Below, piece by piece: positions 1-24,217 of a stretch of DNA of 38,727 bases. A program made the translations under genes and the position numbers. Positions within the stretch are counted from its first letter, which is position 1; each line of letters opens with the position of its first letter. This DNA is from an uncultured Anaerolineales bacterium (lineage in GTDB: Bacteria; Chloroflexota; Anaerolineae; B4-G1), in the NCBI GenBank assembly GCA_964597105.1, contig CAZQXX010000004.1, positions 1-38,727 of the forward strand. Direction: 5' to 3'. Below the pieces are notes generated by a model. That model had not been told where the DNA came from, did no database searches, and saw only the letters and a list, made by a program, of their open reading frames with translations.

Positions 1-58
1 GGGTAGCGACGATCGATGACGTGTGTCGCCGTTGACCAGACATAAGCCTTCTCACCGG

Positions 59-87
59 TTGTTCAGGAAGCAGCGCTGGCCTATAAT
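59..87 (+). promoter_or_regulatory. sigma70-type promoter candidate upstream of the cinA-like gene
   Basis: TTGTTC (59-64), 17-nt spacer, TATAAT (82-87), about 55 nt upstream of the GTG start at 143. Read directly from the sequence. Confidence 0.4.
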
Positions 88-142
88 GGGGGCGCTTGTC
101 CAATAGGTGTCGCAGCGTAGTGCTTGCTGAGGGGGTAGAGGA

Positions 143-607
143 GTGACGGAAGAATCGATCGCTGAACAGGTGACTCGAATACTCGTCGAGCGGGAGTTGA
201 CCATTGGCACGGTGGAGTGCGGTGCAGCCGGTATCGTCAGCCATCGTATCTTTAGCACGGAGGAGGGGCCCAACGCGCTGGGGAATAGTCTGATCCTCGA
301 CGACGTGGAGGAGGCGATCGGCTTGATGGCGCTGCCCCGTCCTCAGTTCAAGAAGGCCGGTGACTTCTCCGCGAAGGCGGCCCGAGCGGCAGCTCGAGAG
401 GGGCGCAGCTTCCTGGGGGTGAACCTCTGCCTGGCCGTCTGGGCGAGGGGGCCGATCACCGATGAGGAAGAGCAGACGGTATACCTGGCCCTCAACACAG
501 CGCGAGACGTCATCGACGAGGCCTACCAGGTGGGGGGCGGGGCGGGACACGACGCCGACTGGCTGGTCGATCGAGCGCTCGAGATGCTGCTAGGGGTGCT
601 ATCGTAG
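143..607 (+). CDS. CinA C-terminal domain / PncC-like (nicotinamide-nucleotide amidohydrolase family) protein
   Basis: 154-aa ORF with a GTG start preceded by GAGGGGG. The N-terminal segment LTIGTVECGAAGIVSHRI aligns by eye with the LTxATAESCTGG segment of stand-alone CinA/PncC domains. The motif is divergent (ECGAAG instead of ESCTGG). Confidence 0.65.
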   Translation: MTEESIAEQVTRILVERELTIGTVECGAAGIVSHRIFSTEEGPNALGNSLILDDVEEAIGLMALPRPQFKKAGDFSAKAARAAAREGRSFLGVNLCLAVWARGPITDEEEQTVYLALNTARDVIDEAYQVGGGAGHDADWLVDRALEMLLGVLS

Positions 608-636
608 ACGTCGCCCCCTCGCGTGGTTCGCTCGTC

Positions 637-665
637 TTGACAATCCCCAGCAGTTGGGCTACAAT
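637..665 (+). promoter_or_regulatory. consensus sigma70 promoter of tRNA-Phe
   Basis: TTGACA (637-642), 17-nt spacer, TACAAT (660-665). The predicted transcription start lies about 6 nt before the mature tRNA 5' end at 678. Confidence 0.65.
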
Positions 666-677
666 AGCCAGCGTGAT

Positions 678-751
678 GCCGAGGTAGCTCAGCCTGGTAG
701 AGCACTTGACTGAAAATCAGGGTGTCCCCAGTTCGAATCTGGGCCTCGGCA
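678..751 (+). tRNA. tRNA-Phe (anticodon GAA)
   Basis: The cloverleaf was folded by hand. Acceptor stem GCCGAGG/CCTCGGC; D stem GCTC/GAGC; anticodon stem CTTGA/TCAGG with loop CTGAAAA; T stem CCCAG/CTGGG with TTCGAAT loop; discriminator A. CCA is not encoded. Confidence 0.95.
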
Positions 752-761
752 TCTCCCCAGA

Positions 762-791
762 GACCCGCCAATTCCCCGGCGGGTCTTTTTT
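762..791 (+). terminator. rho-independent terminator after tRNA-Phe
   Basis: GACCCGCC (762-769) pairs with GGCGGGTC (778-785) across an 8-nt loop, followed by TTTTTT (786-791). Confidence 0.85.
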
Positions 792-868
792 GTGTCCAAG
801 GAATCATCATTGTCCACGCGCCACAGCAGGCGTGAAGGTGTATGCCACGCCCTCCGTCGATCGCCCCG

Positions 869-1204
869 TCAGCTTGCGGACGTCTCGGTCACCGACGCCG
901 GGGAGCCTGTTGGCTGACGGTCAGGGCACGCCGTGCTTATGGCTCTCCCGTCCATGGCCGGTTGACCCGGTTGGGGGTCGATGGTGATGGTCGCGCGGTG
1001 TCCGCAGTGCCCGCACCGAGCTTCCCACACCGGTTGCTTCTCCATCTTGCTGAAAGGGCCCATCTCATGCCCGAGCTTGGCTGCCACGCGACGTGCGCGT
1101 TCCACCAGGGTCACGCGTTCGGCGTAGCAGAAATCCCCCCGGCACACCCCAAGCAGGCTAGCCACGCAGTCTCTACACTTACCCATGTATCGCCTCTTCC
1201 TCAC
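869..1204 (-). CDS. small cysteine-rich hypothetical protein (putative zinc-ribbon)
   Basis: 111-aa ORF whose GTG start overlaps the TGA stop of the upstream GH26-like gene (GTGA, 1201-1204). An alternative ATG lies at 1186. Cys pattern is CxxC, Cx4C and CxxC (CRDC, CRGDFC, CGHC). The opposite-strand ORF 842..1339 is Arg-rich and looks spurious. I recognise no family. Confidence 0.45.
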   Translation of the reverse strand: MRKRRYMGKCRDCVASLLGVCRGDFCYAERVTLVERARRVAAKLGHEMGPFSKMEKQPVWEARCGHCGHRATITIDPQPGQPAMDGRAISTACPDRQPTGSPASVTETSAS

Positions 1205-2355
1205 TTGAAATGGGGATCGTCGATCACGTCCTTGAAGGCATTCAGACTTTCATCGCTCGATGTTACTGACCAGTTGATGGCGGGCCACTCCCGGTCCGAC
1301 TCAACCTCAAACAGGATCACGGCTTCCACCCTCGGGTAGCTGGTCTCCAGCGACGCGAAGCAGTCCCGCAGCCAGGCTGCCTTGTCGCCCCCTTGCTCCG
1401 CCGTCGCCAGCTCGCTGATCATGATCGGCTTGTCCCACCCGAGCGCGGCTTCGTACTGGGGGGCGAACAGGTCGTCGAACGTGCGCCATTCCGCCCAGGG
1501 GGCCACGGCCGCCGTGCCGTGGTTCAACGTCGTCGTGCCGACCCAATCGACCACCTCGTCGCCCGGATAGTACTCCGATGCCCAGCTGTTCAGCCACATC
1601 GCGCTCCACAAAAATACCACGTTGTCCGCCCCTTCGTCGCGGAACACCGTGACGATCTGTCGAAACGCGTCCCGGTACGCCTCCGGTTCCCCCTGCCATG
1701 GGTACCAGGACTTGATGCCCGGCTCGGTGCTCTGCTCGTGGGCAAACCGCAGCACGATGGGCACGTCCAGCGCGCGGGCCCCGCGGGCCCATTCCCGGAT
1801 ATAGGCGTCGTGCTCGCCCTCGGCGATGCTCCTCAGGGAATACGCCGGCTGGCTAGCTGCGGGATCGTCGAACTGGCGTTTCCACGGCTCCCACGTGATC
1901 ACCGGGGTGAGCCCCAGCTCGGATGCCGCCCGGATCGCCTCGGCGGGGAAGTCGCGGTCTTGGTCGCCCCATGCGTGGAACCAGAGCACGTACGTCATCT
2001 TGTGCTCCACCAGCGTCTCGAACTCATAGACCGAGACGAAGTTGTCCTGGAGCACGCCTTCCGTGTAGATGCCCAGGCCCACCTGGCCCTCCGGGTTCAG
2101 CGTCGCCACAGGGCTGGGGAATGGGGTGGGAGTCGCCGTGGGAGTGGGCGTTGGGGTCGGCGTTGGCGTCGGTGTGCTCGTCGGTGTCGGCGTCGGAGTG
2201 GGCGTCGGGGTGGATGTTGGGGTCGGTGTGCTGGTCGCCGTCGGGGACGGCGTCACCGTGGGGTAGATCCCTGCCAGTGGCCCGCACGCGGTCAGCGCCC
2301 CCAGGGCGGCGGTGGCGATCACGGCGGCGAGTGGGCTCCATCTCACGCGTGCCAT
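1201..2355 (-). CDS. secreted lipoprotein, glycoside hydrolase family 26-like (beta-mannanase / beta-glycanase fold)
   Basis: Signal peptide with lipobox LTAC (Cys24), then a roughly 50-aa Pro/Thr linker. The catalytic domain carries GH26-like motifs: RFAHEQS...WYPWQG (acid/base Glu), YYPGDEVVDWVG, and PIMISELA (nucleophile Glu). ATG at 2353-2355 with GAGG upstream. Confidence 0.8.
   Translation of the reverse strand: MARVRWSPLAAVIATAALGALTACGPLAGIYPTVTPSPTATSTPTPTSTPTPTPTPTPTSTPTPTPTPTPTPTATPTPFPSPVATLNPEGQVGLGIYTEGVLQDNFVSVYEFETLVEHKMTYVLWFHAWGDQDRDFPAEAIRAASELGLTPVITWEPWKRQFDDPAASQPAYSLRSIAEGEHDAYIREWARGARALDVPIVLRFAHEQSTEPGIKSWYPWQGEPEAYRDAFRQIVTVFRDEGADNVVFLWSAMWLNSWASEYYPGDEVVDWVGTTTLNHGTAAVAPWAEWRTFDDLFAPQYEAALGWDKPIMISELATAEQGGDKAAWLRDCFASLETSYPRVEAVILFEVESDREWPAINWSVTSSDESLNAFKDVIDDPHFK
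2110..2259 (-). repeat. low-complexity Pro/Thr (TPTPTP) linker-coding microsatellite-like tract
   Basis: Encodes residues about 33-82 of the GH26-like protein (TVTPSPTATSTPTPTSTPTPTPTPTPTS...). On the plus strand it appears as reiterated GGCGTCGG/GGTGTCGG units. Similar tracts lie at about 15170-15310 and 18410-18500. Confidence 0.8.
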
Positions 2356-2626
2356 GGTGCCTCGGGGCGATAGCTATGGCAGGGAGCGAGTGGCGCTAGG
2401 CGCCGATGAGGAGCCCGGCTCCGCCGGCCGGGGTCCCCGACTGCCCGATGGGCTTTGGGCTCACGTTGCTGTCGCCTTGATCGGGACCGCATCGCCTCTG
2501 CCGGATGGGTGCGCTGGCTCTCGTCGCGATGATGAGGGCTACTCGGTTTCTCCATTCGTTCTTCCTTGCTCGGCGCCGGTCAGCCGAAGCCGTGGTGGCC
2601 TGGCACCTGGCACTCGATGCGTCACG

Positions 2627-4219
2627 CTACTCAGACTCGAAGAGGGAACTCAGGACGCGGACCAGGGCTGAGCTCTCGTGGACGCGCCGGAGCACCCTGA
2701 TCGCCTCCTTCTTCGGCTCTACCCCGTGCCACGAGTTCTGCACGGTCTGGCTCAAGCCGAGGATGAAGAACGCGGCCCAGAACAGGCTGCCCAGGTCGGC
2801 CGTGCTGAGCAGGGACTCGGTCATCACGTGATACACGCTGGCCCCGATCAAGCCCAGGAACAGGAGCATCTGGGGCATGACCTCGCGCCAGTACCAACGG
2901 TGGACGTGCTCCTTCCGCGTGACCCGGTAGGTCGGCTTTCCGTTGGGCCCGTACATCAGGGCGACGAGCGTGGCCCTGACGTATACCGGTGCCATCCCCA
3001 GCCACGTCTGTCGCGCGCGCCAGAGATCCTCGTAGGGAAGGCCGTCGGCGAGGCTGACCAGCAACAACTCGACGGCCACGGCGTAGGGCCAGAAGCGGAG
3101 CGCATACTCGGCGTGCGTCGTGATCACGGGGTAGATGTCGAACAGGAGCGAGAAAAGCGGCGTGATGGCGAAGACGAGCACGGCGAAGCTCAGCAGATAG
3201 AAGAAGCCCAGCTCGGCGAACTGCATATGCTGCCGCAGACTAAGGCCGATCTTGTCTCCCCAGAACGTGAGCCGCATGGTGTCGATCGCCCAGGTGCCCC
3301 GCTGCTTGAACGCGTTCGGTATGTCCTCGGGGGCCATCTGTCCGACCGCGCCAACGATGGGGAGGTAGAGCCCCCGCCACCCACGCCGCAGGGCCTCGAC
3401 CCCCGACTGCAGATCTTCGACGAGGTTCCACGTGGGGAATCCCCCGATATCCTCCAGGGCCTCTCGGCGCCACACCAGCCCGGAGCCGCAGGGGAACACG
3501 GCGTTCGCCGCGTTCTTGGCCAGCATGGCCTTGCGGTAGAACAGCGGCTCCAGGTTGCCGAAGGGATCGCCAGGGCTTACGTCGGCCTCCTTGATCGTTT
3601 GTACGAAGGCCGCCTCAGGATCTGCCAGGAGCTGCCCAATGATCTCTCGGAGAAAATCGGCGTCTCCGACGACGTCGTCCGCGTCCCGCGTCTCCACGAA
3701 GGCGGGCGGGGACTCAAGCGCCTCGATTGCGTCGAGGGCGGAGTTCAAGTTTCCAGCCTTCGCCTCGCCCCGACGATCCGGGTCGCCCCTCTCTGGCGGT
3801 TCGTGATACACCACGCGAGCGTCGGGATATTCAGATCGCAGTCGTTCGGCCATGGAACGAATCGCATATCTGTGCCCGTCATCGCTTATGACCAGACGGA
3901 TCTGTGCTGTCGGGTAGTTCTGTCGCAGGACGGACTCGACCGTCGCGTAGACCATCTCGGGAGGCTCCCCGTACGTGGGTACAATGACGGCGACCGCCGG
4001 TTCCTCTCCCTCCGGGACCGGTCGCCTCTCTGGTCTGCGATATTGCCAGTGGTTGGCGACCGTGACGAACGTCATCACTACGATGGTCAGGCTGGCGACG
4101 GCGAAGGGGACCGAGAGCCATAGGGCTCTTCTATTCAGGTTTCTGAGCACCCAGGGCAAGTACCAGGCTGTCGCGATCAGAAGAAGGACCCCGGCCCCCC
4201 TGACTTTCCAGTTCTTCAT
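2627..4219 (-). CDS. processive family-2 glycosyltransferase (cellulose/curdlan/mannan-synthase-like membrane synthase)
   Basis: GT2 signature motifs are present: VAVIVPTYGEP, ISDDG, TRDADD, VEDLQSG, and KQRGTWA in the QxxRW position. Two N-terminal and several C-terminal TM helices. Start chosen at ATG 4217-4219 (MKNWK), with GGAG 11 nt upstream and only 8 nt after the stop of the upstream gene. The ORF-track start at 4345 would overlap that gene. Confidence 0.85.
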   Translation of the reverse strand: MKNWKVRGAGVLLLIATAWYLPWVLRNLNRRALWLSVPFAVASLTIVVMTFVTVANHWQYRRPERRPVPEGEEPAVAVIVPTYGEPPEMVYATVESVLRQNYPTAQIRLVISDDGHRYAIRSMAERLRSEYPDARVVYHEPPERGDPDRRGEAKAGNLNSALDAIEALESPPAFVETRDADDVVGDADFLREIIGQLLADPEAAFVQTIKEADVSPGDPFGNLEPLFYRKAMLAKNAANAVFPCGSGLVWRREALEDIGGFPTWNLVEDLQSGVEALRRGWRGLYLPIVGAVGQMAPEDIPNAFKQRGTWAIDTMRLTFWGDKIGLSLRQHMQFAELGFFYLLSFAVLVFAITPLFSLLFDIYPVITTHAEYALRFWPYAVAVELLLVSLADGLPYEDLWRARQTWLGMAPVYVRATLVALMYGPNGKPTYRVTRKEHVHRWYWREVMPQMLLFLGLIGASVYHVMTESLLSTADLGSLFWAAFFILGLSQTVQNSWHGVEPKKEAIRVLRRVHESSALVRVLSSLFESE

Positions 4220-4227
4220 AGGCTCAT

Positions 4228-5652
4228 CTACTCCGATGTGCTTCTCCAAACGACGACGTCGACGGGAGAGCTGACGTATCTGAAGTTCGCTCCCAGATTG
4301 ATCACCATGCTGGTGCTCGAGAAGACCTGTTCGTAGGTGTCGCACGCCTCCACCTGATCAAGCACCTCCTCTGACCACGCGAAAGACCCGCGCGAGTCGA
4401 CGAACCAGTCGTACTCGCAGATGGACGGCGCCGATGCTTCATGGGTGATGCGGTACTGGTCGTAGACGTCCCAGGGCGAGTCAACGCTCCCGCCGGTGTA
4501 GAGATACATCGTGTACGGCCATGACTCGTTGATCAGGAGTTGCTCCCCTGGCTCCACGTGATCGACCAGGTAGGCTGCCGCCGGACGGGCGTCGGGCCAG
4601 GAGCGATCGGATTGATTCGCCTGCACCAGCCCGAGTCCGGCCAGCACCAGAACGACGAGCACCGTAAGGCCCTTCCGGAGCACGCCGGCCCCCCGGTCGC
4701 CCCACAGGCTGCTCAGGGTCACTCCTGCCAGTGGATAAGCGAAGAGATAGCCAAAGACCAGGTGCTTGTTCGTGCTGACCGGGTCGCCCGTGATCAGATG
4801 ATACGCGGGCCAGATCAGCAGGCTGAGGAGCATCAGGCTCGCCAACCAGCGTCTATCGCTGACGATGAACCAGCTGGAGAGGGCGAGGACGAGGGGCAGG
4901 GCGCTCAGGTAGACGATGACGAAGACGATGATCTCGTATGGAACGCCGAACGTGGGCCGGTTCTCCAGGCGCCAGTTGAAGAACTCCCCCACCTGCTCGC
5001 GCACCGGAAGGAAGAAGGCCAGTCCCACGGCCCCGGCCAGGAAGGCAAAGAGCAGGATGTCCATAGTCGCTCGGTCCTCCCGGAGAAAGAGGAGCGTGCC
5101 CAGGAGGGGGACAGCCATGATCCCGATCGGGTATTTCGCGAACACAGCCACGGCGAAAGCGCCTGCCGCTGCGACGAGCCAGGCCCGATGGTCCCTTCGC
5201 TCCAGCTCGGTGATCGCCCAGAACGCAACCGCGATCCCCGACAGCGCCAGGGTATCGTAGACCCCGAGGCGCGCCAGCGCCAGAAACGGTCCATTTAGGG
5301 CCAGGGCCACGGTGGCCCAGAAGCTCGCTCGCTCATCGAAGATGTTCGCCACGGCCCGCGCGAAGGCGGCCAGGCCGCCGACTGTCACGATAGCGGCAAC
5401 CGCGCGGGTGCCAATCAATCCGGCGACTCTGTACCCCAAACCGGCCAGGACTGGCCAGATGAGCGAGCCACCGAACCAGCTCAGGAAACGGTCTTCGTAT
5501 CCCATCCCCTCCAGGGTGCGAATCCCCGCGGTGACGTAGATCCCTTCGTCGAAGAAGGGGCCGTTGTAGTTGAGCGTGGCCAGGCATAGTACCAGGCACA
5601 CGCCCACGGCAAACCAGGTTGCACGTCTGTAGTTCCTGTTCAAAGTTGTCAT
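4228..5652 (-). CDS. GT-C fold membrane glycosyltransferase (ArnT/PMT/GT39-GT83-like)
   Basis: Polytopic membrane protein with about 11 hydrophobic segments. The first loop carries FFDEGIY (the DE motif typical of GT-C enzymes). A C-terminal soluble domain of about 130 aa follows. Start taken at ATG 5650-5652 (MTTLNRN). Confidence 0.75.
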   Translation of the reverse strand: MTTLNRNYRRATWFAVGVCLVLCLATLNYNGPFFDEGIYVTAGIRTLEGMGYEDRFLSWFGGSLIWPVLAGLGYRVAGLIGTRAVAAIVTVGGLAAFARAVANIFDERASFWATVALALNGPFLALARLGVYDTLALSGIAVAFWAITELERRDHRAWLVAAAGAFAVAVFAKYPIGIMAVPLLGTLLFLREDRATMDILLFAFLAGAVGLAFFLPVREQVGEFFNWRLENRPTFGVPYEIIVFVIVYLSALPLVLALSSWFIVSDRRWLASLMLLSLLIWPAYHLITGDPVSTNKHLVFGYLFAYPLAGVTLSSLWGDRGAGVLRKGLTVLVVLVLAGLGLVQANQSDRSWPDARPAAAYLVDHVEPGEQLLINESWPYTMYLYTGGSVDSPWDVYDQYRITHEASAPSICEYDWFVDSRGSFAWSEEVLDQVEACDTYEQVFSSTSMVINLGANFRYVSSPVDVVVWRSTSE

Positions 5653-5744
5653 TTGTTCGATCTTGCTGCACAATACGCCCTCACTTGCCGGTCCGAAAGA
5701 ATGGCAAGGGATTCACTCGGGTGGGCGGCGCCCACGACAAAGGC

Positions 5745-5773
5745 ATTGTAGCCTGATCGCGTCGCTTCGTCCA
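5745..5773 (-). promoter_or_regulatory. promoter candidate for the GT-C / GT2 operon
   Basis: Minus-strand TGGACG (plus 5768-5773), 17-nt spacer, TACAAT (plus 5745-5750). This would give a leader of about 90 nt containing two hairpins (GTGGG/CCCAC and TTGCC/GGCAA). Confidence 0.4.
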
Positions 5774-5891
5774 CCACGTTAACGGCCCCTTGCCTCTCTG
5801 TCTACCGATGCGGCTGATCGGACCGGCTGGCTCACACTATATAATGAGCAGAGAGGCTGGGCGTTACGGGTAAGGACGGAATTGTAAACCG

Positions 5892-8687
5892 ATGACAATC
5901 AGAGTCAGCTCTGGGATCAAGGTTGGAGCATTTGGGGTCATAGCGTTAGCTCTGGCACTCAGCCTGTCGCCAGTCGATCATCGTCTCCAAACGCGCCCCG
6001 GATCGATCGCCTTGGCGCAGACCACCGCCGACCTGTGGGTCGACGCGGTAAGCGGCCACGATAGTAACTCCGGGTTGAGTCGCTCCGCGCCATTCCGAAC
6101 AATCCAGAAGGCGGCCAGTCAAGCCGAACCGGGAACCACCGTGCACATCCTCCCCGGCGTCTACCGTGAATCCGTCCGTCCGGCTGTGAGCGGTGCCGCC
6201 GACGCGCCGATCACGTACGTCGCCGAAGCGGGGCCTGGCACCGTGGTCCTGCGGGGGTCCGAACCGTCGTCGTCGCTCGAGTGGCGAAGACCGTCCGATG
6301 ACCCGCTGGACCTGCCCGATGGGGTTGATCCGTCCAATATCTACTACGCTGATCTATCCGCCTGGGGCCTGGATGAGGCACCGCGCTTTGTGGTTCAGCT
6401 GGACGCACAGGGCGAGGTCGCTGCCCGGCTCCCCCTGGCCCGCGAGCCCGATTGGCACGTGGAGACCGACTGGCGATACCACGAGCTGTGGTGGACGGCC
6501 GACGGGGGCTCCTTCGTCGCCCAATGCGATCCCGCTGCCGATTCCGACTGGAACTGTGACCTCCCCTCCCGATGTGAGAATCAACTGACCGACGTCAATC
6601 ACTTCCCGGAGCCGGATCCGCGCATTGAGGCCGGTGACCTGACGTCCCTCGGGAACCTCACCGGCGCCACGCTGGTGGCTCTGGATGCCAAATGGGGTCA
6701 TTACGTCTACAGGCGTCAGATCGCGGGTCACGATGTCGCAGCGGGCCGCATCACCGTCGGCAGCGAGTGTCTCCAGGACGGCGGTTGGGAGGATCCGGGC
6801 CTGGGGTGGGGGACGAAGTACTACGTGGAGGATCATCCGGCCCTGCTCGACTCGCCCGGGGAGTGGTGGTACGACCAAACGACTGGTCGTCTCTACCTCT
6901 GGTCGCCCGGAGGCGGGAACCCGGCGGCGATGGACATCGAGATCTCGAGACGGGACGACGGTTTCGATCTGACGGACCGTTCCCACATCGCGATCGATGG
7001 ACTGACCATCGAGATCGTCAACCGGAACGCCGTCAAGCAGGGATGGGGGACGGGCTTCCATCAGGGGAATGCGATCCGCAACAGCACGTTACGCTACGCC
7101 GATTTCGGCGTCGTCGTGCTCCAGTCCGGTGACGGTGTCACACGGGACTTCCGCCTGGAGGACTCGGAGATCGCCCACATAGATACGAACGGCCTCTACA
7201 TCTCCGAGTGGTGGGACGGCGCGCCATCCCCCGGCCCCAACTGGGCCCCGAGCACACGAGACATCGTCATCAAGGGCAACGAGATGCACCACCTCGGCTT
7301 CCGTTCCGACACCGATAATGCCATCGGCGTCAAGATCCAGTTCGCCAACCAGCTCCGCTTCGAGGACAACCACGTTCACGACGTGGCCCACAACGGGGTG
7401 CAGTTTCTCTGGTCCGTGATCGACTCGGACAAGACGTACGACTTCTCACCCGACGAGATCAAGACCGGGGGGATCCTGGTCAAGGACAACCTCATCGAGG
7501 ACACCTGCCAGCTCACCACCGACTGCGCGGCGTTGAAGTTCTGGGGCCAGCCGCCGGATAATCACGTCTTCCGCGACGTGCTCGTGACCGGCAACGTCTT
7601 CCGCGATAACCTGGCGTGGACCTACGTCGGTGAGCAGCGCGTGGGATGGTGGATGGGGGGCGAGAGCTGCGAGGTGCAGGGCCGGGCCGGGTTCGGGCTC
7701 TACCTCGACTATGCCAGCGGCATCCACGCCTACCGGAACATCGCCTATAACAACGCGTACGCCGGGTTCATGCTCGTCGGTACCTGGCGGGACGGTGACG
7801 TCCTCTTCTACGACAACGTGGCAGCCAATTCCCTCTATGGCTTCCGACCCAGCGGGACGGTTGACGACACGCATCAGGGGAGCGTCAACACCCAGATCGT
7901 CAACAACGCCATCGTCGGTAACGAGGGGTACGGGATCTACCAGTGCACGAAGGAAGAGGCGTTCGGCAACCTGGTCATTGACCGCAACCTGTACTACAAC
8001 AACGGGTGGCGGGCCTACGCTGATGGCGGCGTGTGGAAACCGGGCGCTATGGCCATCCGCGTCGAAGGGGCGTCTCAGCAGTACTACCAGACCGTCGCCG
8101 AGATCCAGCAGCACCCTCAACGCTGGGAGCTCCACGGCGTGGGGGGCGATCCCGGCTTCGCCCGTTACGACCCGTCCGATCACGACCTCACGAATGGCTC
8201 CTGGCCGGATTTCCATCTGACGCCATCGAGCCAGCTGGGCGTCGATCAGGGAGCTGCGCTGCCAGATTCACTCACGGGGTTGCTAAGCGCGTTCGGGGTC
8301 GACGATCCTCAATGGGGGCCGGCTTGGGACATCGGGCGGTATGAGGGGAGCTTCGTCGTCTCCCCGAGTCCCTCCGCCCAGTCCATCGATCCCGGCGGGA
8401 CGGCGTCTTACACTCTCTTGGTCGAGTGTCTGAGCGAGTTCGCCTCGCCCGTGACCGTCGACGTCGAAAGCCCCGATCCCCGTTTCGAGATCACGGTCGA
8501 TCCGACGGTTGTCACGTCCGACGGGGAAGTGGCGCTGATGGTCACCGACACCGAGGGCGATGCTGCCGGACATTACCGCGTGCCGGTGACGGCGACTGGT
8601 GGAGGATTCACCCATCCAGCCGTCGTGGATCTCTTCGTGGGCGGATCGCAGGTCTATCTGCCGCTGGTCGTCAAGGGACTGCCCTAG
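5892..8687 (+). CDS. secreted right-handed parallel beta-helix protein (DUF1565/pectate-lyase-fold; polysaccharide lyase, hydrolase or epimerase-like) with C-terminal Ig-like domain
   Basis: Signal peptide present. The N-terminal segment LWVDAVSGHDSNSGLSRSAPFRTIQKAASQAEPGTTVHILPGVY is typical of DUF1565/beta-helix proteins. There are many N/G/D-rich coil repeats (NxxxxN, GNxFxDN). The C-terminal roughly 100 aa look beta-sandwich-like. Confidence 0.8.
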   Translation: MTIRVSSGIKVGAFGVIALALALSLSPVDHRLQTRPGSIALAQTTADLWVDAVSGHDSNSGLSRSAPFRTIQKAASQAEPGTTVHILPGVYRESVRPAVSGAADAPITYVAEAGPGTVVLRGSEPSSSLEWRRPSDDPLDLPDGVDPSNIYYADLSAWGLDEAPRFVVQLDAQGEVAARLPLAREPDWHVETDWRYHELWWTADGGSFVAQCDPAADSDWNCDLPSRCENQLTDVNHFPEPDPRIEAGDLTSLGNLTGATLVALDAKWGHYVYRRQIAGHDVAAGRITVGSECLQDGGWEDPGLGWGTKYYVEDHPALLDSPGEWWYDQTTGRLYLWSPGGGNPAAMDIEISRRDDGFDLTDRSHIAIDGLTIEIVNRNAVKQGWGTGFHQGNAIRNSTLRYADFGVVVLQSGDGVTRDFRLEDSEIAHIDTNGLYISEWWDGAPSPGPNWAPSTRDIVIKGNEMHHLGFRSDTDNAIGVKIQFANQLRFEDNHVHDVAHNGVQFLWSVIDSDKTYDFSPDEIKTGGILVKDNLIEDTCQLTTDCAALKFWGQPPDNHVFRDVLVTGNVFRDNLAWTYVGEQRVGWWMGGESCEVQGRAGFGLYLDYASGIHAYRNIAYNNAYAGFMLVGTWRDGDVLFYDNVAANSLYGFRPSGTVDDTHQGSVNTQIVNNAIVGNEGYGIYQCTKEEAFGNLVIDRNLYYNNGWRAYADGGVWKPGAMAIRVEGASQQYYQTVAEIQQHPQRWELHGVGGDPGFARYDPSDHDLTNGSWPDFHLTPSSQLGVDQGAALPDSLTGLLSAFGVDDPQWGPAWDIGRYEGSFVVSPSPSAQSIDPGGTASYTLLVECLSEFASPVTVDVESPDPRFEITVDPTVVTSDGEVALMVTDTEGDAAGHYRVPVTATGGGFTHPAVVDLFVGGSQVYLPLVVKGLP

Positions 8688-8691
8688 CCCC

Positions 8692-9714
8692 TCAAGCTGC
8701 TCCAGCCCCTCCGCTGGTCAGATCGAACCCGAATTTGAGCGGGTCCTCTGGATCCACGACGAACTGGTTGAAGCCCGTCACCCAGGCCTGGCCCGTGATC
8801 TCCGGTACGACGACCGGTTGATTCCCCATCCGCTCCTCGCGCAGCAGACGCCCGGTGAAGCGGGTGCCGATGATGCTCTCATTCACGAACCTCTGCTGGA
8901 GGCCGAGCCGCCCTGCGGCGTGAAGCGCGGCCATCTTGGCGCTCGTCCCGGTGCCGCACGGCGATCGGTCCACTTGGCCTGTGCCAAAGACAACGACGTT
9001 CCGGCAGTAGGCCCCGTCTTCTCCCTCGAGTTCCTCGTAGATCTCCACCAGATCGACGGTGTCGATGTGCGGCTGTGTGGGATGGACGACGTCGATCTGC
9101 TCGGCGATGGCTGCCAGGATGGCCCTTCCGCGCTCTATCAGCTCGGGCAGATGGGCCAGCTCGACCGCCAGCCCCAGGCTCTCCGCCGACACCAGAGCGA
9201 AGAAGTTTCCCCCGAAGGAGATGTCCAGTGGTACCGTCCCCCCGAGAGTGTCGATGGTCACCCCGCGGCGATAGACGAACGCGGGCACGTTCTCCACAGC
9301 GACCGCCCCGATGTGACCATCCTCTATCTGTGCGCGGGCGCGGACCAGGCCGGCCGGCGTGTCGAGCCGCACCTCCGTCGTCGGCTCCTTCAGTGGGACC
9401 AGCCCGGTCGTCAGGGCAGCCACGACTGCACCGATCGACCCGTGTCCGCACATCGCCAGGTAGCCCCCGCCGTCCATGAAGATCACGCCGATGTCCGCCT
9501 TGGCATGGGCCGGCTCCATGATGATCGCGCCGAACATGTCGGCGTGACCCCGCGGCTCGTGCATCAGGGCCGTGCGGACGAAATCGTACTCATGCTGCAG
9601 CTGACGCCGTTTCTCCGCCATCGTACCCTGCAGGAACGGGACGCCGGAGACGACCACCCGGGTCGGCTCACCGGCCGTATGCGTGTCCACGGTCTGGAAT
9701 ACGTGTTCGTACAC
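8692..9714 (-). CDS. proline racemase / 4-hydroxyproline 2-epimerase family enzyme
   Basis: The family N-terminus VDTHTAGEPTRVV is present, and both catalytic Cys motifs are present (AMCGHGSIG and DRSPCGTGTSAKMA). This argues for a Cys-Cys racemase/epimerase rather than a 3-Hyp dehydratase. GTG start with AAGGAG 7 nt upstream. Confidence 0.9.
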   Translation of the reverse strand: MYEHVFQTVDTHTAGEPTRVVVSGVPFLQGTMAEKRRQLQHEYDFVRTALMHEPRGHADMFGAIIMEPAHAKADIGVIFMDGGGYLAMCGHGSIGAVVAALTTGLVPLKEPTTEVRLDTPAGLVRARAQIEDGHIGAVAVENVPAFVYRRGVTIDTLGGTVPLDISFGGNFFALVSAESLGLAVELAHLPELIERGRAILAAIAEQIDVVHPTQPHIDTVDLVEIYEELEGEDGAYCRNVVVFGTGQVDRSPCGTGTSAKMAALHAAGRLGLQQRFVNESIIGTRFTGRLLREERMGNQPVVVPEITGQAWVTGFNQFVVDPEDPLKFGFDLTSGGAGAA

Positions 9715-9831
9715 TCGGTTTCTCCTTCGTGTGCTACCGGGTCATGCTGAGGGCTGGTGCTCCGTGGCTTTTCGGGTCCTGGCAGTCAGCCGTTCAATCG
9801 TCTGCCTGTGGATCTGCGCCAGCTGTTTGTT

Positions 9832-10809
9832 CTACAGGGGCAGCCAGGTGCCGATCTCTTTCTCGACCGCCCGTTCGTAGATAGAGGGCGCAACGGCCAT
9901 ATCGTCGATCGCCAGGCCCAGGTTGCACGTCATCGTACGCTCTTCCGCTGTCTCGCGCCCCGGCTTCTTCCCGGTCACCAGCTCGCCCACGTCTGCGTGG
10001 ATTGGCGGGATATCCTGGAAGTAGCCGATGCTCCTGTAGTGCTCTAGCTGCGGCACGTCGTCCGTGCAGAACTTGTCGACCTCTTTCATCGCGTCGGGGT
10101 GCCAGTAGGAGTCGAAATCGACCAGCGAGGCGAAGGCGCCTTCGTCCAGCCACCCGGCCTGAATCGTGGCGTGCGGTTCCTTCAGGATCGGTCCGGCGGT
10201 GACCACCATGTCACAGCCGGTCACAGCCTCCCGGGGCGTCTCCACGGGGTCCACCTCCAGCTCGAATCGAGATTCAATCTCGTCGGCAAAGCGGTCCAGG
10301 GCCGCCCGGTCCACGTCGTAAGCCATCACTCTCTCCAGCGGGAAGAGGACGTTGAGCGCTTCGGTGTTGGTATGCCCCTGCACCCCGCAGCCCAGGACCC
10401 CGAGCACGGCGGAGTCGGGGCGCGCCAGCTGCCGCGCGGCCACGGCGGTCGCGGCAGCCGTGCGCATCGCCGTGATCCACACGCAATCCATCACCGCGAT
10501 GGGCAACCCCGTCTCCGGATCGTTCAGGATGAGGAGGCCTGTGATGTAGGGCAGGTCGCGCTTGTGGTTCTCGGGGAAGCCGCTGACCCACTTGACCCCG
10601 GCTGAGTTCATCGCCGGGATGTACGCGGGCATGGCGTGGATGAAGTTGTCGCCACCTCCGGGATGAATGCCGGGCTTGGGCGGCATCTCCACGCGGCCCT
10701 TCCCCTTCTCACCGAACGCGGTCTCTACCAGGTCGATGATCTCCGCCATCGTCAGACCGGCGGATGCGACGTCAGCCTGGGACAGGTAGAGCAGGTCTCG
10801 ATCGTCCAT
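9832..10809 (-). CDS. ornithine cyclodeaminase / mu-crystallin family protein (possible pyrroline-2-carboxylate reductase)
   Basis: Family-typical N-terminus and Rossmann motif LGVLGCGVQGHTN. ATG start with AAGGAGA upstream. Confidence 0.85.
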   Translation of the reverse strand: MDDRDLLYLSQADVASAGLTMAEIIDLVETAFGEKGKGRVEMPPKPGIHPGGGDNFIHAMPAYIPAMNSAGVKWVSGFPENHKRDLPYITGLLILNDPETGLPIAVMDCVWITAMRTAAATAVAARQLARPDSAVLGVLGCGVQGHTNTEALNVLFPLERVMAYDVDRAALDRFADEIESRFELEVDPVETPREAVTGCDMVVTAGPILKEPHATIQAGWLDEGAFASLVDFDSYWHPDAMKEVDKFCTDDVPQLEHYRSIGYFQDIPPIHADVGELVTGKKPGRETAEERTMTCNLGLAIDDMAVAPSIYERAVEKEIGTWLPL

Positions 10810-11007
10810 AGGTGTCTCTCCTTGTCTGGGTAGTCAGTTGCTTTCTTGTTCGCGAGCTCCTACCGGGGGCTGTGTGAGTCGCGACCCCGGTCTGTCTCGT
10901 GTTCACGCCGCTTTTGAGCGCTCATGCCTCCCGGGACAGTGCCTGCGTCACGGCGTCGCGGCACGGTATCACGTCGTGCAGACTGGGCGCGCGGAGATTC
11001 CCCTCTG

Positions 11008-17077: not shown

Positions 17078-18268
17078 ATGCGTCGCTGGATAATCCTTGC
17101 ATCGCTCATCTTACTCGCGGCATTGGCTCCAGAGGCCGAACCCGCCGTTGCGGCAGCTGCCTCGGATCCCGAGGCTGCTGCCACCACTGTCAGCCGCTAC
17201 GTCTGCGTGCCGAACATGGTGTGGCGCGATCCCGCGCTCTGTCCGTCCCACGGCCCGGGTACGACTGCCTATCGCCTGGCGTCCTTCAATCTGCCCGACC
17301 CGCTTCCTGAGTTGCCTGTCCAGGAGATTCCCGAGGAGGAAGATGACGATCTTCTTCCCCGCACCTATGCCCACGTCACCACCCTGCCTCTCGACGTCTA
17401 TCACCATCCGATGGAGGCCGCCGAAGGGCTCCCGCCTGCGCGAACCCTGTTGTCGGGCGACTGGTGGGTCAGTGTCGAGGGAGCGGTCGAGTTCGAGGGC
17501 CAGAGATGGTACAAGATCAATGAGGATGAGTTCGTGCCCGCCGATACGCTGGCATTCGCCAGCCCCTCCAAGTTCCGCGGTGTCTACCTCGAGGAGCAGC
17601 CCCAGCACCCGTTTGCCTGGATAAACCGCTGGACCCAGCCGTCGATCGTGCCCCAGGGCGCACTGAACGAGAGCGTTGTGCTCGAGCGGTACCAGCGGGT
17701 GACGATCTTCGGTGAGGAACGGCGGGGTAGCGACGAGATTTGGTATCTGGTGGGGCAGGATCAATGGGTCGAGCAGAGCAACGTGTCGCGGGTGGACGTC
17801 GACCCGCCACAGGAGGAGATCGGGCCGGGCGAGAAATGGATCGAGATCGACTTGTTTGAGCAGACCATCGCTGCCTACGAGGGGCCGCGCATGGTCTACG
17901 CCACGATGATCTCCAGCGGGCGAACCGCCACCGCGACGCCGCCGGGTCTCTACCGCGTCTATTACAAGGTTCGCGAGGGGAAGATGAGTAATCCCGACAC
18001 CGAGGACGGGAGTCCGGCCTGGTACTACATTGAGGACGTGCCCTGGACGTTGTACTTCCATCAGGGATACTCAATCCACGCCGCTTTCTGGCACGACGCC
18101 TTCGGCTTCCTGCGCAGCCACGGCTGCGTCAACCTGGCGCCCCGCGACGCCGAGTGGTTCTTCAACTGGGCCGATCCGCCAATGCCCGAGGGCGAGAGGA
18201 CGCTTTTCGTCCCCGAGGGCGGTCAGACGACCTGGGTCTGGTCGCATTTCAGCTCTCCGTTTGAGTAG
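17078..18268 (+). CDS. L,D-transpeptidase (YkuD domain) with N-terminal signal peptide
   Basis: YkuD catalytic region HQGYSIHAAFWHDAFGFLRSHGCVNLAPRDAEWFFNW (the His...SHGCxN motif), plus the upstream IEIDLFEQTIAAYEG strand typical of the fold. Confidence 0.9.
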   Translation: MRRWIILASLILLAALAPEAEPAVAAAASDPEAAATTVSRYVCVPNMVWRDPALCPSHGPGTTAYRLASFNLPDPLPELPVQEIPEEEDDDLLPRTYAHVTTLPLDVYHHPMEAAEGLPPARTLLSGDWWVSVEGAVEFEGQRWYKINEDEFVPADTLAFASPSKFRGVYLEEQPQHPFAWINRWTQPSIVPQGALNESVVLERYQRVTIFGEERRGSDEIWYLVGQDQWVEQSNVSRVDVDPPQEEIGPGEKWIEIDLFEQTIAAYEGPRMVYATMISSGRTATATPPGLYRVYYKVREGKMSNPDTEDGSPAWYYIEDVPWTLYFHQGYSIHAAFWHDAFGFLRSHGCVNLAPRDAEWFFNWADPPMPEGERTLFVPEGGQTTWVWSHFSSPFE

Positions 18269-18291
18269 GGCCTGGGGCCTATAGGACGTTG

Positions 18292-19992: not shown

Positions 19993-20011
19993 CCGTGGTT
20001 GAGGAGACGGC

Positions 20012-20470
20012 ATGAACCGGGAACGGGACGCTGAAAGCACAGACACAGGGCAAGACGGGCAACTAACGCAGCGGGATGAGGCGTTGTCTGCGAGTCCAGA
20101 CACGGGCTCCCCGGTGCACGCCACGGCTCCCCTGGACCCGATCTATGCCTGGGGCATCGTGCTCGAGCCCGTGGAGACCTTGATTGAGTGCACCGCCAGC
20201 TTCATCGAGCAGCTGGCCCGCGAGACCCGGGAGCGGGGGGAGAGCTTCAGCGACGAGGAGTTGGAGGGGAGGTTTCTTGCCTTGTTCGAGCGTCTGGTGG
20301 ACGAGGGAACTCTCCGTCGCCTGCCCGACGCGTCGCCGGAGATGGGCCGTCAGATTCTAGGCCCTCGTCGCTGGTTGCGTGCCCAGCGGATCCGCATCGA
20401 GCGCCTCGCCGAGCTGGAGGCCGGAGAAGAGGCGACTGGTCGGACTACGCCGTCCCGCCCTGATCGCTGA
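20012..20470 (+). CDS. hypothetical acidic protein
   Basis: 152-aa ORF with a good GAGGAG 5 nt before the ATG, 19 nt after the capA-like stop. I recognise no family. Its 3' end overlaps the convergent GT2 gene by 26 nt. Confidence 0.5.
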   Translation: MNRERDAESTDTGQDGQLTQRDEALSASPDTGSPVHATAPLDPIYAWGIVLEPVETLIECTASFIEQLARETRERGESFSDEELEGRFLALFERLVDEGTLRRLPDASPEMGRQILGPRRWLRAQRIRIERLAELEAGEEATGRTTPSRPDR

Positions 20471-21146: not shown

Positions 21147-21162
21147 TCTCTCTCCCACAAAC

Positions 21163-21204
21163 AAAAAACCAAGAGGTTGAGGGACTCCTCATTCCACCTC
21201 TTGG
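21163..21204 (-). terminator. rho-independent terminator after tRNA-Gly
   Basis: On the minus strand, CCAAGAGGT pairs with ACCTCTTGG (9 bp), plus an inner 5-bp stem TGAGG/CCTCA with an AGTC loop, followed by TTTTTTGTTTG. Confidence 0.85.
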
Positions 21205-21213
21205 CTCTGAGAG

Positions 21214-21286: not shown

Positions 21287-21298
21287 TCGACGGTCAAG

Positions 21299-22291: not shown

Positions 22292-22308
22292 GGGGCGGGT
22301 TCCATCGG

Positions 22309-24215: not shown

Positions 24216-24217
24216 CC

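What the first reader, a model, noticed from the sequence alone, without database searches (positions are those of the whole stretch)
869..8687. Atypical synthase-dependent polysaccharide locus: GT-C + processive GT2 + GH26 lipoprotein + giant beta-helix protein
On the minus strand, a promoter candidate (5745-5773) is followed by a GT-C membrane transferase and, 8 nt later, a BcsA/CrdS-like processive GT2 with flanking TM helices. After a 271-nt gap come a GH26-like lipoprotein and a translationally coupled Cys-rich 111-aa ORF. Divergently transcribed is a 931-aa secreted parallel beta-helix (DUF1565-type) protein. Known synthase-dependent systems (Bcs, Alg, Pel, PNAG) combine a processive GT2 with a cognate endo-hydrolase such as BcsZ (GH8), and some include beta-helix modifying enzymes such as AlgG. 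This locus differs in four ways:
- It uses a GH26-type hydrolase. GH26 members act on beta-mannans, beta-1,3-xylans or mixed-linkage glucans.
- I see no PilZ or other c-di-GMP receptor domain.
- It has no outer-membrane porin or TPR scaffold.
- It places a GT-C enzyme directly in front of the synthase.
The polymer (beta-mannan-like or mixed-linkage beta-glucan-like) and the role of the GT-C partner are unknown. This could be an undescribed monoderm exopolysaccharide system.
Basis: partly seen in the sequence, partly recalled or inferred. Interest (0 to 1): 0.7.

Follow-up and report, generated by a model that had tools for sequence, protein, structure and literature searches.

The report
Anaerolineae glycan synthase cassette with GT-C
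This is a real gene cassette, conserved in Anaerolineae (Chloroflexota), that pairs a cellulose-synthase-like enzyme lacking its usual c-di-GMP sensor with a GT-C transferase, a lichenase-like GH26 lipoprotein and a small unannotated cysteine-rich protein; it probably makes an as yet unidentified surface beta-glycan, and I found no published description of it.

Summary
These are a GT-C fold transferase, a BcsA-like GT2 without PilZ, a GH26 lipoprotein and a DUF1565 beta-helix protein.

- **Conserved core:** it is GT-C, then GT2, then GH26, then the Cys-rich protein. Among 121 GT2 loci with enough upstream sequence, 46 have the GT-C directly upstream. All 46 are of the Chloroflexota type.
- **Downstream genes:** of 32 GT-C-positive loci with enough downstream sequence, 24 carry GH26 and 17 carry the Cys-rich gene. 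The 75 GT-C-negative loci (largely Actinomycetota) never carry the Cys-rich gene.
- **Fusions:** natural in-frame fusions exist for GT2-GH26 and for GT2-Cys-rich.
- **Beta-helix:** it accompanies the cassette only in the closest relatives, so it is peripheral.
- **GH26:** it resembles the Clostridium thermocellum lichenase CtLic26A (E=3e-28) and not the GH26 mannanases or xylanases.
- **GT2:** the family has an invariant QRGTW in place of QxxRW.
- **GT-C:** it keeps its catalytic residues in 62 of 63 orthologues.
- **Cys-rich protein:** it is cytoplasmic. In the one fusion it sits where BcsA carries PilZ.

The polymer is not identified; a beta-glucan is my first guess. I rate this a new variant of a synthase-dependent system.

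The parts
869..1186 (-). Small cytoplasmic Cys-rich protein of 105 aa (the ORF extends to GTG 1204). It has seven conserved Cys and one conserved His: C4, C7, C15 and C20, then H40, C58, C61 and C87.
   Evidence: It has no signal peptide or TM segment and no Pfam, NCBIfam or PHROGs family. The AlphaFold model has pLDDT 68.6 and no Foldseek match below E=0.9. The gene follows GH26 or GT2 in 21 loci and is fused in frame to the GT2 C-terminus in P0036/L071.
1201..2355 (-). GH26 lipoprotein with a lipobox LTAC, a Pro/Thr linker, and a CtLic26A-like catalytic domain at aa 107-378.
   Evidence: Pfam PF02156 scores 38.5 bits against 20.2. PDB 2bv9 and related entries (C. thermocellum endoglucanase H GH26 module) match at E=3e-28, whereas GH26 mannanases reach only E>=2e-4. 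The catalytic residues Glu207 and Glu315 are invariant in 18 of 18 cassette homologues. The domain is fused to the GT2 in L010.
2356..2626 (-). 271-nt spacer between GT2 and GH26.
   Evidence: No Rfam match and no terminator-like site on the minus strand. In L002, L003, L005, L008 and L056 a gene of 768-1522 aa follows GT2 on the same strand (before GH26 in the three loci, L005, L008 and L056, where the contig reaches GH26); Pfam, run on the L005 protein, finds BNR/sortilin, PQQ sugar dehydrogenase and PKD domains.
2627..4219 (-). BcsA-like membrane GT2 synthase of 530 aa. It has two N-terminal TM helices, a GT-A domain and four C-terminal TM helices, a gating loop YRVTRK, and no PilZ.
   Evidence: TIGR03030 scores 1e-47 but only 162.7 bits against a cutoff of 699. 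BcsA (5ej1, 4hg6) matches at about 1e-31. The invariant motifs are SDDG, RDADD, FPCGSG, VED, QRGTW and YxVTxK.
4228..5652 (-). GT-C fold glycosyltransferase of the PMT_2/ArnT type (474 aa from ATG 5652; the ORF extends to TTG 5673). It has a DE motif in the first outer loop and a C-terminal alpha/beta domain.
   Evidence: PMT_2 scores 33.2 bits. The model has pLDDT 90.7 and pTM 0.91. Foldseek hits are ALG12 (TM-score 0.70), STT3, ArnT, ALG9 and AftB. D42, E43, K180, H292, K303 and H304 are invariant. It lies directly upstream of GT2 in 46 of the 121 loci with enough upstream sequence, plus 17 partial cases.
5745..5773 (-). Sigma-70-like promoter candidate, TGGACG-17-TACAAT, upstream of the GT-C gene.
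   Evidence: It matches 9 of 12 consensus positions. Six such sites occur in 600-9000, against 1.4 expected. This is weak evidence only.
5892..8687 (+). Divergently transcribed secreted beta-helix protein of 931 aa. It has a DUF1565 N-terminal region, a parallel beta-helix, an Ig-like C-terminal domain and a VYLPLVVKGLP tail. I treat it as a neighbour, not a core part.
   Evidence: Pfam calls are. The only PDB sequence hit covers aa 53-133 and is the GH120 xylosidase 3vst. It is syntenic only in L067, L002, L003 and L005.

Best explanation
A four-gene cassette (GT-C, GT2, GH26, Cys-rich protein) makes, exports and processes a beta-linked surface glycan in a monoderm Anaerolineae bacterium.

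**Shown here**
- The GT2 has the catalytic, acceptor-binding, gating-loop and membrane-channel elements of BcsA, but no PilZ.
- The GT-C has a complete GT-C fold and conserved catalytic residues.
- The GH26 has both catalytic glutamates, a lipoprotein signal and a long linker.
- The four genes are inherited together.
- GH26 and the Cys-rich protein each occur fused to the synthase in at least one relative.

**Inferred**
- The GT2 polymerises a sugar from a nucleotide-sugar donor and pushes the chain through its own channel.
- The GT-C sits beside the synthase and acts on the outer face, using a polyprenyl-phosphate sugar to branch or anchor the emerging chain.
- The membrane-tethered GH26 trims or releases the polymer, as BcsZ does for cellulose.
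- The Cys-rich protein binds metal in the cytoplasm and docks on the synthase C-terminus as a regulatory subunit, in the place of PilZ.
- The polymer is most likely a beta-glucan, possibly of mixed 1,3;1,4 linkage. My rough split is 0.4 for that, 0.2 for mannan or glucomannan, and the rest for other polymers.
For: **Synteny**
- The GT-C is directly upstream of the GT2, with gaps or overlaps of a few nucleotides, in 46 loci with full upstream sequence and 17 partial ones. These come from two independent collections.
- GH26 is present in 24 of 32 GT-C-positive loci with downstream sequence, and the Cys-rich gene in 17 of 32. In GT-C-negative loci the counts are 3 of 53 and 0 of 53.

**Fusions**
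- GT2, an extra TM helix and GH26 form one ORF in L010.
- GT2 and the Cys-rich domain form one ORF in P0036/L071.
- The Cys-rich gene directly follows GT2, with no GH26 between, in L071, L081, L082 and L091.

**GT2**
- BcsA is the best solved relative, and the D, DxD, ED, W and FxVTxK-type elements are conserved.

**GT-C**
- The model is confident and the structural neighbours are all GT-C enzymes.
- Catalytic-loop residues are kept in 62 of 63 orthologues.
- A polyprenyl-phosphate glycosyl synthase-like GT2 lies next to it in L004 and L005. A PAP2 phosphatase lies next to it in L011 and L012. Three further GT-C paralogues sit in the operon in L006 and L069.

**GH26**
- It is CtLic26A-like, with both catalytic Glu invariant.

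**Precedent**
- Streptomyces CslA needs a translationally coupled membrane partner that is unrelated to BcsB (PMC11022532).
Against: - Nothing here is biochemical.
- The Arg of QxxRW is Thr in 60 of 61 family members. This Arg is invariant in the characterised processive GT2 synthases I know of (from memory). The chemistry may therefore differ from BcsA.
- Most GT2 family members sampled (75 of 121 loci, largely Actinomycetota) have no GT-C, GH26 or Cys-rich neighbour. The synthase does not universally need them.
- Polymer hints conflict:
  - GH113, a mannanase family, lies behind the cassette in L011, L012, L070 and L072.
  - GH10 replaces GH26 in L068.
  - A true UDP-xylose synthase precedes GT2-GH26 in L022, L026 and L032.
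- The GT2-Cys-rich fusion rests on a single short assembled contig.
- The regulatory role of the Cys-rich protein is inferred from its position only.
Confidence: 0.6

Rival explanations
1. The GT-C is mainly a structural, obligatory membrane partner of the synthase. It would play the role of BcsB or Streptomyces GlxA by stabilising the channel or guiding the chain, and its transferase activity would be secondary or unrelated to the polymer.
For: The GT2 has only two N-terminal TM helices. These align to BcsA from about residue 87 onward, so the BcsA TM1-2 region has no counterpart. The two genes are 8 nt apart here and overlap or are 1-20 nt apart in relatives. In Ktedonobacterales locus L014 the GT-C stays directly upstream although D42, K180, H292, K303 and H304 are all replaced. 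CslA-GlxA is a precedent.
Against: 62 of 63 orthologues keep every catalytic-signature residue, which argues for a selected enzymatic activity. Polyprenyl-phosphate sugar synthase, PAP2 and extra GT-C paralogues occur in some cassettes. The two roles are not mutually exclusive.
Confidence: 0.2
2. The GT2 is not a polymer synthase. It makes and flips a lipid-linked sugar or short glycolipid, which the adjacent GT-C then uses as donor. This would be a Gtr- or CsbB/YfhO-type three-component glycosylation system built from a BcsA-like scaffold.
For: Pairing of a GT2 with a GT-C is the hallmark of such systems (established knowledge; PMC5836110 was listed but not read). QxxRW is altered to QRGTW. 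A dedicated small polyprenyl-phosphate sugar synthase sits next to the GT-C in only a few loci.
Against: The GT2 keeps the acceptor-stacking Trp, the FFCGS-like motif, the gating loop and the C-terminal TM bundle of BcsA. An endo-acting GH26 is the regular partner and is even fused to the GT2, which only makes sense for a polymer. The many stand-alone actinobacterial homologues have no GT-C to feed.
Confidence: 0.1
3. The genes are independent housekeeping genes that merely lie side by side, and the locus is not a system.
For: The 271-nt gap could hold a second promoter. The beta-helix gene is indeed not conserved with the rest.
Against: The gene order is kept across GT2 identities from 92% down to about 50%, in genomes and in an independent metagenome sample. 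Fusions exist.
Confidence: 0.03

Closest known systems
Bcs cellulose synthase systems (BcsA-BcsB-BcsZ-BcsC)
   Same: The membrane GT2 has a GT-A domain, DxD and ED catalytic motifs, an acceptor Trp, an FxVTxK-type gating loop and a C-terminal TM channel. BcsA is the best PDB and NCBIfam match. A dedicated endo-hydrolase is encoded with the synthase.
   Different: There is no PilZ, BcsB, BcsC or TPR here. The hydrolase is GH26 rather than GH8. The motifs are QRGTW for QxxRW and FPCGSG for FFCGS. There are only two N-terminal TM helices. The TIGR03030 score is 163 bits against a cutoff of 699. A GT-C gene and a Cys-rich gene are added.
Streptomyces CslA-GlxA-CslZ-LpmP apical glycan system (PMC11022532)
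   Same: The host is a monoderm filamentous bacterium. A BcsA-like synthase is translationally coupled to a membrane-anchored partner unrelated to BcsB. A glycan hydrolase lies in the cluster. In five relatives (L002, L003, L005, L008, L056) a secreted BNR protein follows GT2; the L005 member, the only one scanned with Pfam, carries a PQQ sugar dehydrogenase domain, which loosely parallels the oxidative partner.
   Different: The partner here is a GT-C transferase, not a copper radical oxidase. CslA keeps QxxRW and part of PilZ and responds to c-di-GMP. I could not test homology to CslA itself, because no CslA sequence was available to me.
Bacterial mixed-linkage beta-glucan synthases (S. meliloti BgsA; Romboutsia ilealis RiGT2, PMC10374906)
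   Same: These are BcsA-like GT2 enzymes. The cassette hydrolase is closest to the only GH26 lichenase, CtLic26A, so a 1,3;1,4-beta-glucan product is plausible.
   Different: RiGT2 has QxxRW and a PilZ domain that it needs for activity. The BgsA C-terminus binds c-di-GMP. Neither has a GT-C or GH26 partner described in that paper.
Three-component extracytoplasmic glycosylation systems (GtrABC; CsbB-GtcA-YfhO; ArnC-ArnT)
   Same: The GT-C fold enzyme has an acidic motif in its first outer loop. A polyprenyl-phosphate sugar synthase-like GT2 lies next to it in L004 and L005. The donor is probably lipid-linked.
   Different: Here the GT-C is coupled to a channel-forming BcsA-like synthase rather than to a small GtrB-like GT2. 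No flippase gene was seen in the cassette.

Membership tests
GH26 glycoside hydrolase | Sequence match to the family profile above the curated threshold | tested here: met
   PF02156 scores 38.5 bits against 20.2. The full catalytic domain aligns to CtLic26A at E=3e-28.
GH26 glycoside hydrolase | Two catalytic glutamates, the acid/base in an HE motif and the nucleophile on strand 7 | tested here: met
   Glu207 (AHE) and Glu315 (ISE) align to the two conserved Glu-containing motifs of CtLic26A (HE and AE), which I take from memory to be its catalytic Glu109 and Glu222. Both are invariant in 18 of 18 cassette homologues.
GH26 lichenase (CtLic26A-like) as opposed to mannanase or beta-1,3-xylanase | Closer in sequence to CtLic26A than to other GH26 activities; substrate specificity | tested here: inconclusive
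   The E-value is 3e-28 to CtLic26A and at best 2e-4 to mannanases. There is no hit at E<1 to the GH26 xylanase Xyl4 (3VPL). Activity cannot be tested with these tools.
BcsA-type processive GT2 synthase | D, D, D catalytic signature (DDG, DxD, ED) | tested here: met
   SDDG, RDADD and VED are invariant in 60 or 61 of 61 sequences and align with the BcsA motifs.
BcsA-type processive GT2 synthase | QxxRW motif | tested here: not met
   The motif is Q-R-G-T-W. The Arg is Thr in 60 of 61 family members, while Gln and Trp are invariant.
BcsA-type processive GT2 synthase | Gating loop FxVTxK and a TM channel after the GT domain | tested here: met
   YRVTRK aligns to the BcsA gating loop. I count four hydrophobic segments after the GT domain and two before it. 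The hydropathy scan scored five of these six above threshold; the first N-terminal helix is read from the sequence. The TIGR03030 alignment spans the same region.
BcsA-type processive GT2 synthase | C-terminal PilZ domain that binds c-di-GMP | tested here: not met
   There is no PilZ hit. The protein ends about 35 aa after the last TM helix, and the TIGR03030 alignment stops at position 561 of 714.
BcsA-type processive GT2 synthase | Score above the curated equivalog cutoff for cellulose synthase | tested here: not met
   162.7 bits against 699.1 for TIGR03030, and 102.3 against 992 for NF008558.
GT-C glycosyltransferase (PMT_2/ArnT-like) | GT-C membrane fold | tested here: met
   The model has pLDDT 90.7 and pTM 0.91. 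The top 26 Foldseek hits at E<=1e-3 are all GT-C enzymes, including ALG12, STT3, ArnT, ALG9, AftB, PglB and Pmt4.
GT-C glycosyltransferase (PMT_2/ArnT-like) | Acidic catalytic motif in the first extracytoplasmic loop | tested here: met
   The motif is FFDEG. D42 and E43 are invariant in 36 sequences and in all but one of the GT2-adjacent orthologues that cover the site.
GT-C glycosyltransferase (PMT_2/ArnT-like) | Use of a polyprenyl-phosphate-linked sugar donor | not testable with these tools
   The only evidence is indirect: a PpgS/DPM1-like GT2 lies upstream in L004 and L005, and a PAP2 phosphatase in L011 and L012.
DUF1565 / parallel beta-helix protein | Profile matches above threshold | tested here: met
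   Beta_helix scores 42.6 against 25.9, and DUF1565 scores 31.9 against 20.3.
AlgG-like polymer-modifying beta-helix enzyme belonging to this system | Conserved co-occurrence with the synthase; specific similarity to epimerase or lyase families | tested here: not met
   It is syntenic only in the five closest loci. The only PDB sequence hit is the N-terminal 80 aa of a GH120 xylosidase.

The most novel reading that the evidence does not exclude
The cassette would be a self-contained synthase machine found in Anaerolineae and related Chloroflexota, with three unusual properties:
- The GT-C transferase is an obligate, catalytically active partner that branches or anchors the nascent chain as it leaves a BcsA-like channel.
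- The small Cys-rich metal-binding protein is a new kind of cytoplasmic regulatory subunit. It would replace PilZ and c-di-GMP control, for example by sensing redox state or metal.
- The QRGTW synthase makes a polymer not known from bacteria of this phylum, such as a decorated mixed-linkage beta-glucan forming the filament sheath or wall.
Probability: 0.25. Interest if true: 0.8.

Novelty: new variant of a known kind. Interest (0 to 1): 0.6.

Why it matters
Synthase-dependent polysaccharide secretion is understood almost entirely from Proteobacteria, plus a few Firmicutes and Streptomyces. Anaerolineae are abundant filamentous bacteria in sludge, sediments and mats, and their envelope polymers are essentially unknown.

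This cassette gives a defined and widespread gene set with three directly testable features:
- a processive-type synthase with an altered QxxRW motif;
- a GT-C enzyme coupled to a channel-forming synthase;
- a small, unannotated Cys-rich protein at the position of PilZ.

Heterologous expression of two to four genes would identify the polymer. It would also show whether c-di-GMP-independent control exists.

Tried and rejected
- **Riboswitch or regulatory RNA.** I searched 1-10000 in Rfam with the E-value threshold. It found only tRNA-Phe and a sub-threshold sRNA hit overlapping it.
- **Fold of the Cys-rich protein.** The model has pLDDT 68.6 and no Foldseek match below E=0.9. Pfam, NCBIfam and PHROGs give nothing. 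A profile search found a wider family of about 70-aa proteins, also uncatalogued.
- **Solved relatives of the GT-C by sequence.** None were found.
- **Xylan hypothesis.** A true UDP-xylose synthase precedes GT2-GH26, but only in one actinobacterial lineage (L022, L026, L032). The window GH26 does not match the GH26 xylanase Xyl4 (3VPL) at E<1. I kept this as a minor possibility only.
- **Mannan hypothesis.** GH113 recurs behind the cassette in four loci, but the GH26 is not mannanase-like. This is unresolved.
- **Beta-helix as a core part.** Rejected on synteny.
- **Metagenome scan with the single Ktedonobacterales GT2.** It found nothing. The alignment-based scan worked.
- **Literature.** Searches combining cellulose synthase or synthase-like terms with Chloroflexi, Anaerolineae or GT-C found no description of this cassette.
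- **GT-C-GT2 fusions.** None were seen in the homologue lists.

Full report
**Observation**

The five ORFs are present as described. GC content at the third codon position is 0.74-0.85 for all of them, which supports coding. Pfam and NCBIfam give the following:

| Product | Result |
|---|---|
| 1201-2355 | Glyco_hydro_26, 38.5 bits against gathering score 20.2 |
| GT2 | Glyco_tranf_2_3 8e-23, Cellulose_synt 1e-9, TIGR03030 CelA 1e-47 |
| GT-C | PMT_2, 33.2 bits against 26.1 |
| 931-aa protein | Beta_helix and DUF1565 |
| 111-aa ORF | nothing |

The TIGR03030 alignment stops at model position 561 of 714, and no PilZ family is hit.

Homologues of the GT2 are about 530 aa. Its start is therefore ATG 4219, 8 nt after the GT-C stop, with GGAG just before that stop. 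The spacer to GH26 is 271 nt and holds no Rfam match and no terminator-like site. The proposed promoter at 5773-5745 matches 9 of 12 consensus positions.

Two start codons should be moved. The Cys-rich ORF starts at ATG 1186 (105 aa), 14 nt after the GH26 stop and behind GGAAGAGG. The GT-C probably starts at ATG 5652.

**Organism**

GT2 and GT-C homologues at 60-94% identity come from metagenome-assembled genomes named Anaerolineae, Anaerolineales, Thermoflexales or Chloroflexota. From general knowledge, Chloroflexota are regarded as monoderm.

**Is it a system?**

I collected 66 loci from species-representative genomes, six from assemblies that carry listed homologues, and 80 from an independent metagenome scan. 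I searched all of them with profiles for the four proteins.

| Set of loci | Count |
|---|---|
| GT2 loci with at least 1.5 kb upstream | 121 |
| of these, GT-C directly upstream on the same strand | 46 (all Chloroflexota type) |
| shorter contigs showing a GT-C fragment upstream | 17 |
| GT-C-positive loci with at least 2.5 kb downstream | 32 |
| of these, with GH26 | 24 |
| of these, with the Cys-rich gene | 17 |
| GT-C-negative loci | 75 (largely Actinomycetota by the titles of the 52 genome records; the metagenome contigs carry no taxonomy) |
| GT-C-negative loci with downstream sequence | 53 |
| of these, with GH26 | 3 |
| of these, with the Cys-rich gene | 0 |

- The GT-C to GT2 junction is a few nucleotides or an overlap almost everywhere.
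- The GT-negative loci have GT2 proteins 45-54% identical to the window protein.
- The order GT-C, GT2, GH26, Cys-rich is kept while GT2 identity falls from 92% to about 58%. The GT-C to GT2 pair is kept down to about 50%.

Three natural fusions strengthen the link:
- In L010, GT2, an extra TM helix and GH26 form one ORF.
- In P0036/L071, the Cys-rich domain is fused in frame to the GT2 C-terminus.
- In P0112/L072, the GT2 carries an extra TM helix and a TPR-like tail.

In L071, L081, L082 and L091 the Cys-rich gene follows GT2 directly, with no GH26 between them. It is therefore tied to the synthase and not to the hydrolase.

The beta-helix gene accompanies the cassette only in the window and in L067, L002, L003 and L005. 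It is a neighbour and not a core part.

**The parts**

*GT2.*
- BcsA of R. sphaeroides is the best solved relative, at E about 1e-31.
- Across 61 homologues, SDDG, RDADD, FPCGSG, VED and the gating loop YxVTxK are invariant or nearly so.
- The QxxRW motif reads Q-R-G-T-W in 60 of 61.
- The protein has two TM helices before the GT domain and four after it. It ends about 35 residues after the last helix.
- It scores far below the curated cellulose-synthase cutoffs. I therefore treat it as a distinct subfamily and not as a cellulose synthase.

*GT-C.*
- The family is small and tight: 179 hits, the best 120 at 50-94% identity.
- The AlphaFold model is confident, with pLDDT 90.7 and pTM 0.91. Its structural neighbours are ALG12, STT3, ArnT, ALG9, AftB and PglB.
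- D42, E43 (FFDEG in the first outer loop), K180, H292, K303 and H304 are invariant. They are kept in 62 of 63 GT2-adjacent orthologues.
- The one exception is the Ktedonobacterales locus L014, which has lost five of them and still sits upstream of its GT2.
- Three kinds of gene that recur in some cassettes point to lipid-linked donors:
  - A PpgS/DPM1-like GT2 lies upstream in L004 and L005.
  - A PAP2 phosphatase lies upstream in L011 and L012.
  - Three extra GT-C paralogues sit in the operon in L006 and L069.

*GH26.*
- It has the lipobox LTAC and a long Pro/Thr linker.
- The catalytic domain aligns end to end with the C. thermocellum CelH GH26 module (CtLic26A) at 3e-28. GH26 mannanases reach only 2e-4 or worse.
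- The GH26 xylanase Xyl4 (3VPL), whose structure is cited in PMC10470212, does not appear at E<1.
- Glu207 and Glu315 are invariant in 18 of 18 homologues.

*Cys-rich protein.*
- It has no signal peptide. Its conserved residues are C4, C7, C15, C20, H40, C58, C61 and C87.
- It has no Pfam, NCBIfam or PHROGs family and no structural match.
- A profile search of 1.8 billion representative proteins finds about 30 full-length relatives. It also finds a wider set of about 70-aa proteins that share only the H/CxxC/C half (199 at E<=1e-3 in all). These too are uncatalogued.

**Mechanism**

Shown here:
- the domain architecture of each protein;
- the conserved catalytic residues;
- co-inheritance of the four genes;
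- the fusions;
- the predicted topology, with the GH26 outside and tethered and the Cys-rich protein inside.

Inferred:
- The GT2 polymerises and translocates a beta-glycan.
- The GT-C, made in step with the synthase, acts on the outer face with a polyprenyl-phosphate sugar to branch or anchor the chain, and may also stabilise the channel.
- The GH26 trims or releases the polymer, as BcsZ does for cellulose.
- The Cys-rich protein docks on the cytosolic C-terminus of the synthase as a regulatory module, where BcsA has PilZ.

Streptomyces CslA-GlxA is a precedent for a monoderm BcsA-like synthase that needs a translationally coupled partner unrelated to BcsB (PMC11022532).

**Polymer**

The CtLic26A-like partner favours a beta-glucan, possibly of mixed linkage. 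A GalU-like gene follows GT2-Cys in L071, which fits a glucan. Other hints disagree:
- GH113, with 2e-46 to endo-beta-1,4-mannanases, lies convergent behind the cassette in L011, L012, L070 and L072.
- GH10 replaces GH26 in the complete genome CP070818.1.
- A true UDP-xylose synthase, with 2e-97 to human UXS1, precedes GT2-GH26 in L022, L026 and L032.

I leave the polymer open, with beta-glucan as first choice.

**Comparison and novelty**

- The cassette works like a synthase-dependent system. However, it fails several defining features of Bcs: PilZ, QxxRW, BcsB, BcsC and the curated score.
- It differs from CslA-GlxA in the kind of partner.
- It differs from the known bacterial mixed-linkage glucan synthases, which keep QxxRW and a PilZ or c-di-GMP-binding C-terminus (PMC10374906).
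- Literature searches found no description of it.
- I rate it a new variant of a known kind, of moderate to high interest. The two points a specialist would not expect are the GT-C coupled to a channel-forming synthase and the uncatalogued Cys-rich module at the PilZ position.

Noticed in passing
window 8650-8687 (C-terminus of the beta-helix protein); L002, L005, L011 and L012 orthologues and neighbours: Three unrelated secreted proteins in these Chloroflexota loci end in the same tail, V[YF]LP[LV]V plus 2-5 residues. They are the beta-helix protein, GH113, and the BNR plus sugar-dehydrogenase protein, whose tail reads AYLPLVIRGDRQ. This looks like a lineage-specific C-terminal sorting or anchoring signal.
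   Followed up: partly
window 17078-32805: A second cell-envelope neighbourhood lies here. It holds an L,D-transpeptidase, a PGA_cap protein, an AglJ/PpgS-like polyprenyl-phosphate glycosyl GT2 (20445-21164, minus strand), an amidase_3, RmlB (23100-24254, minus strand; 457 bits, above cutoff), a TPR protein, a prepilin peptidase, a second PMT_2 GT-C (27484-29073), and a 1074-aa Wzy_C/O-antigen-ligase-like protein.
   Followed up: partly
window 869-1186 (aa 25-90 of the Cys-rich protein): The H40/C58xxC61/C87 half of the protein matches a much wider set of about 70-aa proteins with the pattern RGH...CxxC...PxPNEIxIxGxAVAxxC. The search found 199 representatives at E<=1e-3. Some occur as repeats in proteins of 480-640 aa. 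None is in Pfam or PHROGs.
   Followed up: partly
L002, L003, L005, L008, L056 (between GT2 and GH26): In one sub-lineage a secreted protein of 768-1522 aa follows GT2, at the position of the window's 271-nt spacer. Pfam on the L005 member finds BNR/sortilin repeats, a PQQ glucose/sorbosone dehydrogenase domain and a PKD domain. It may be an oxidative accessory enzyme.
   Followed up: partly
L014 8253-9914: The Ktedonobacterales GT-C orthologue has lost D42, K180, H292, K303 and H304, yet remains directly upstream of its GT2. It is the only such case among 63 orthologues.
   Followed up: yes
L022, L026, L032 (Actinomycetota, including Pseudonocardiaceae): A UDP-glucuronate decarboxylase (UDP-xylose synthase; 2e-97 to human UXS1), the GT2 and a GH26 lie together (in L022 the GH26 is on the opposite strand). 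In L026 and L032 a RamC/LanC-kinase-like gene and an S9 peptidase follow them.
   Followed up: partly
window 677-753 (+): A tRNA-Phe (GAA) gene lies 116 nt beyond the end of the cassette, on the opposite strand, with a strong sigma-70-like site at 637-665 (11 of 12 matches).
   Followed up: no
window 8692-13611: Beside the beta-helix gene lie a proline racemase-like gene, an ornithine cyclodeaminase-like gene and an 867-aa DEAD/Hrq1-type helicase with HNH/MZB domains. The closest relative, L067, has them in the same order.
   Followed up: no
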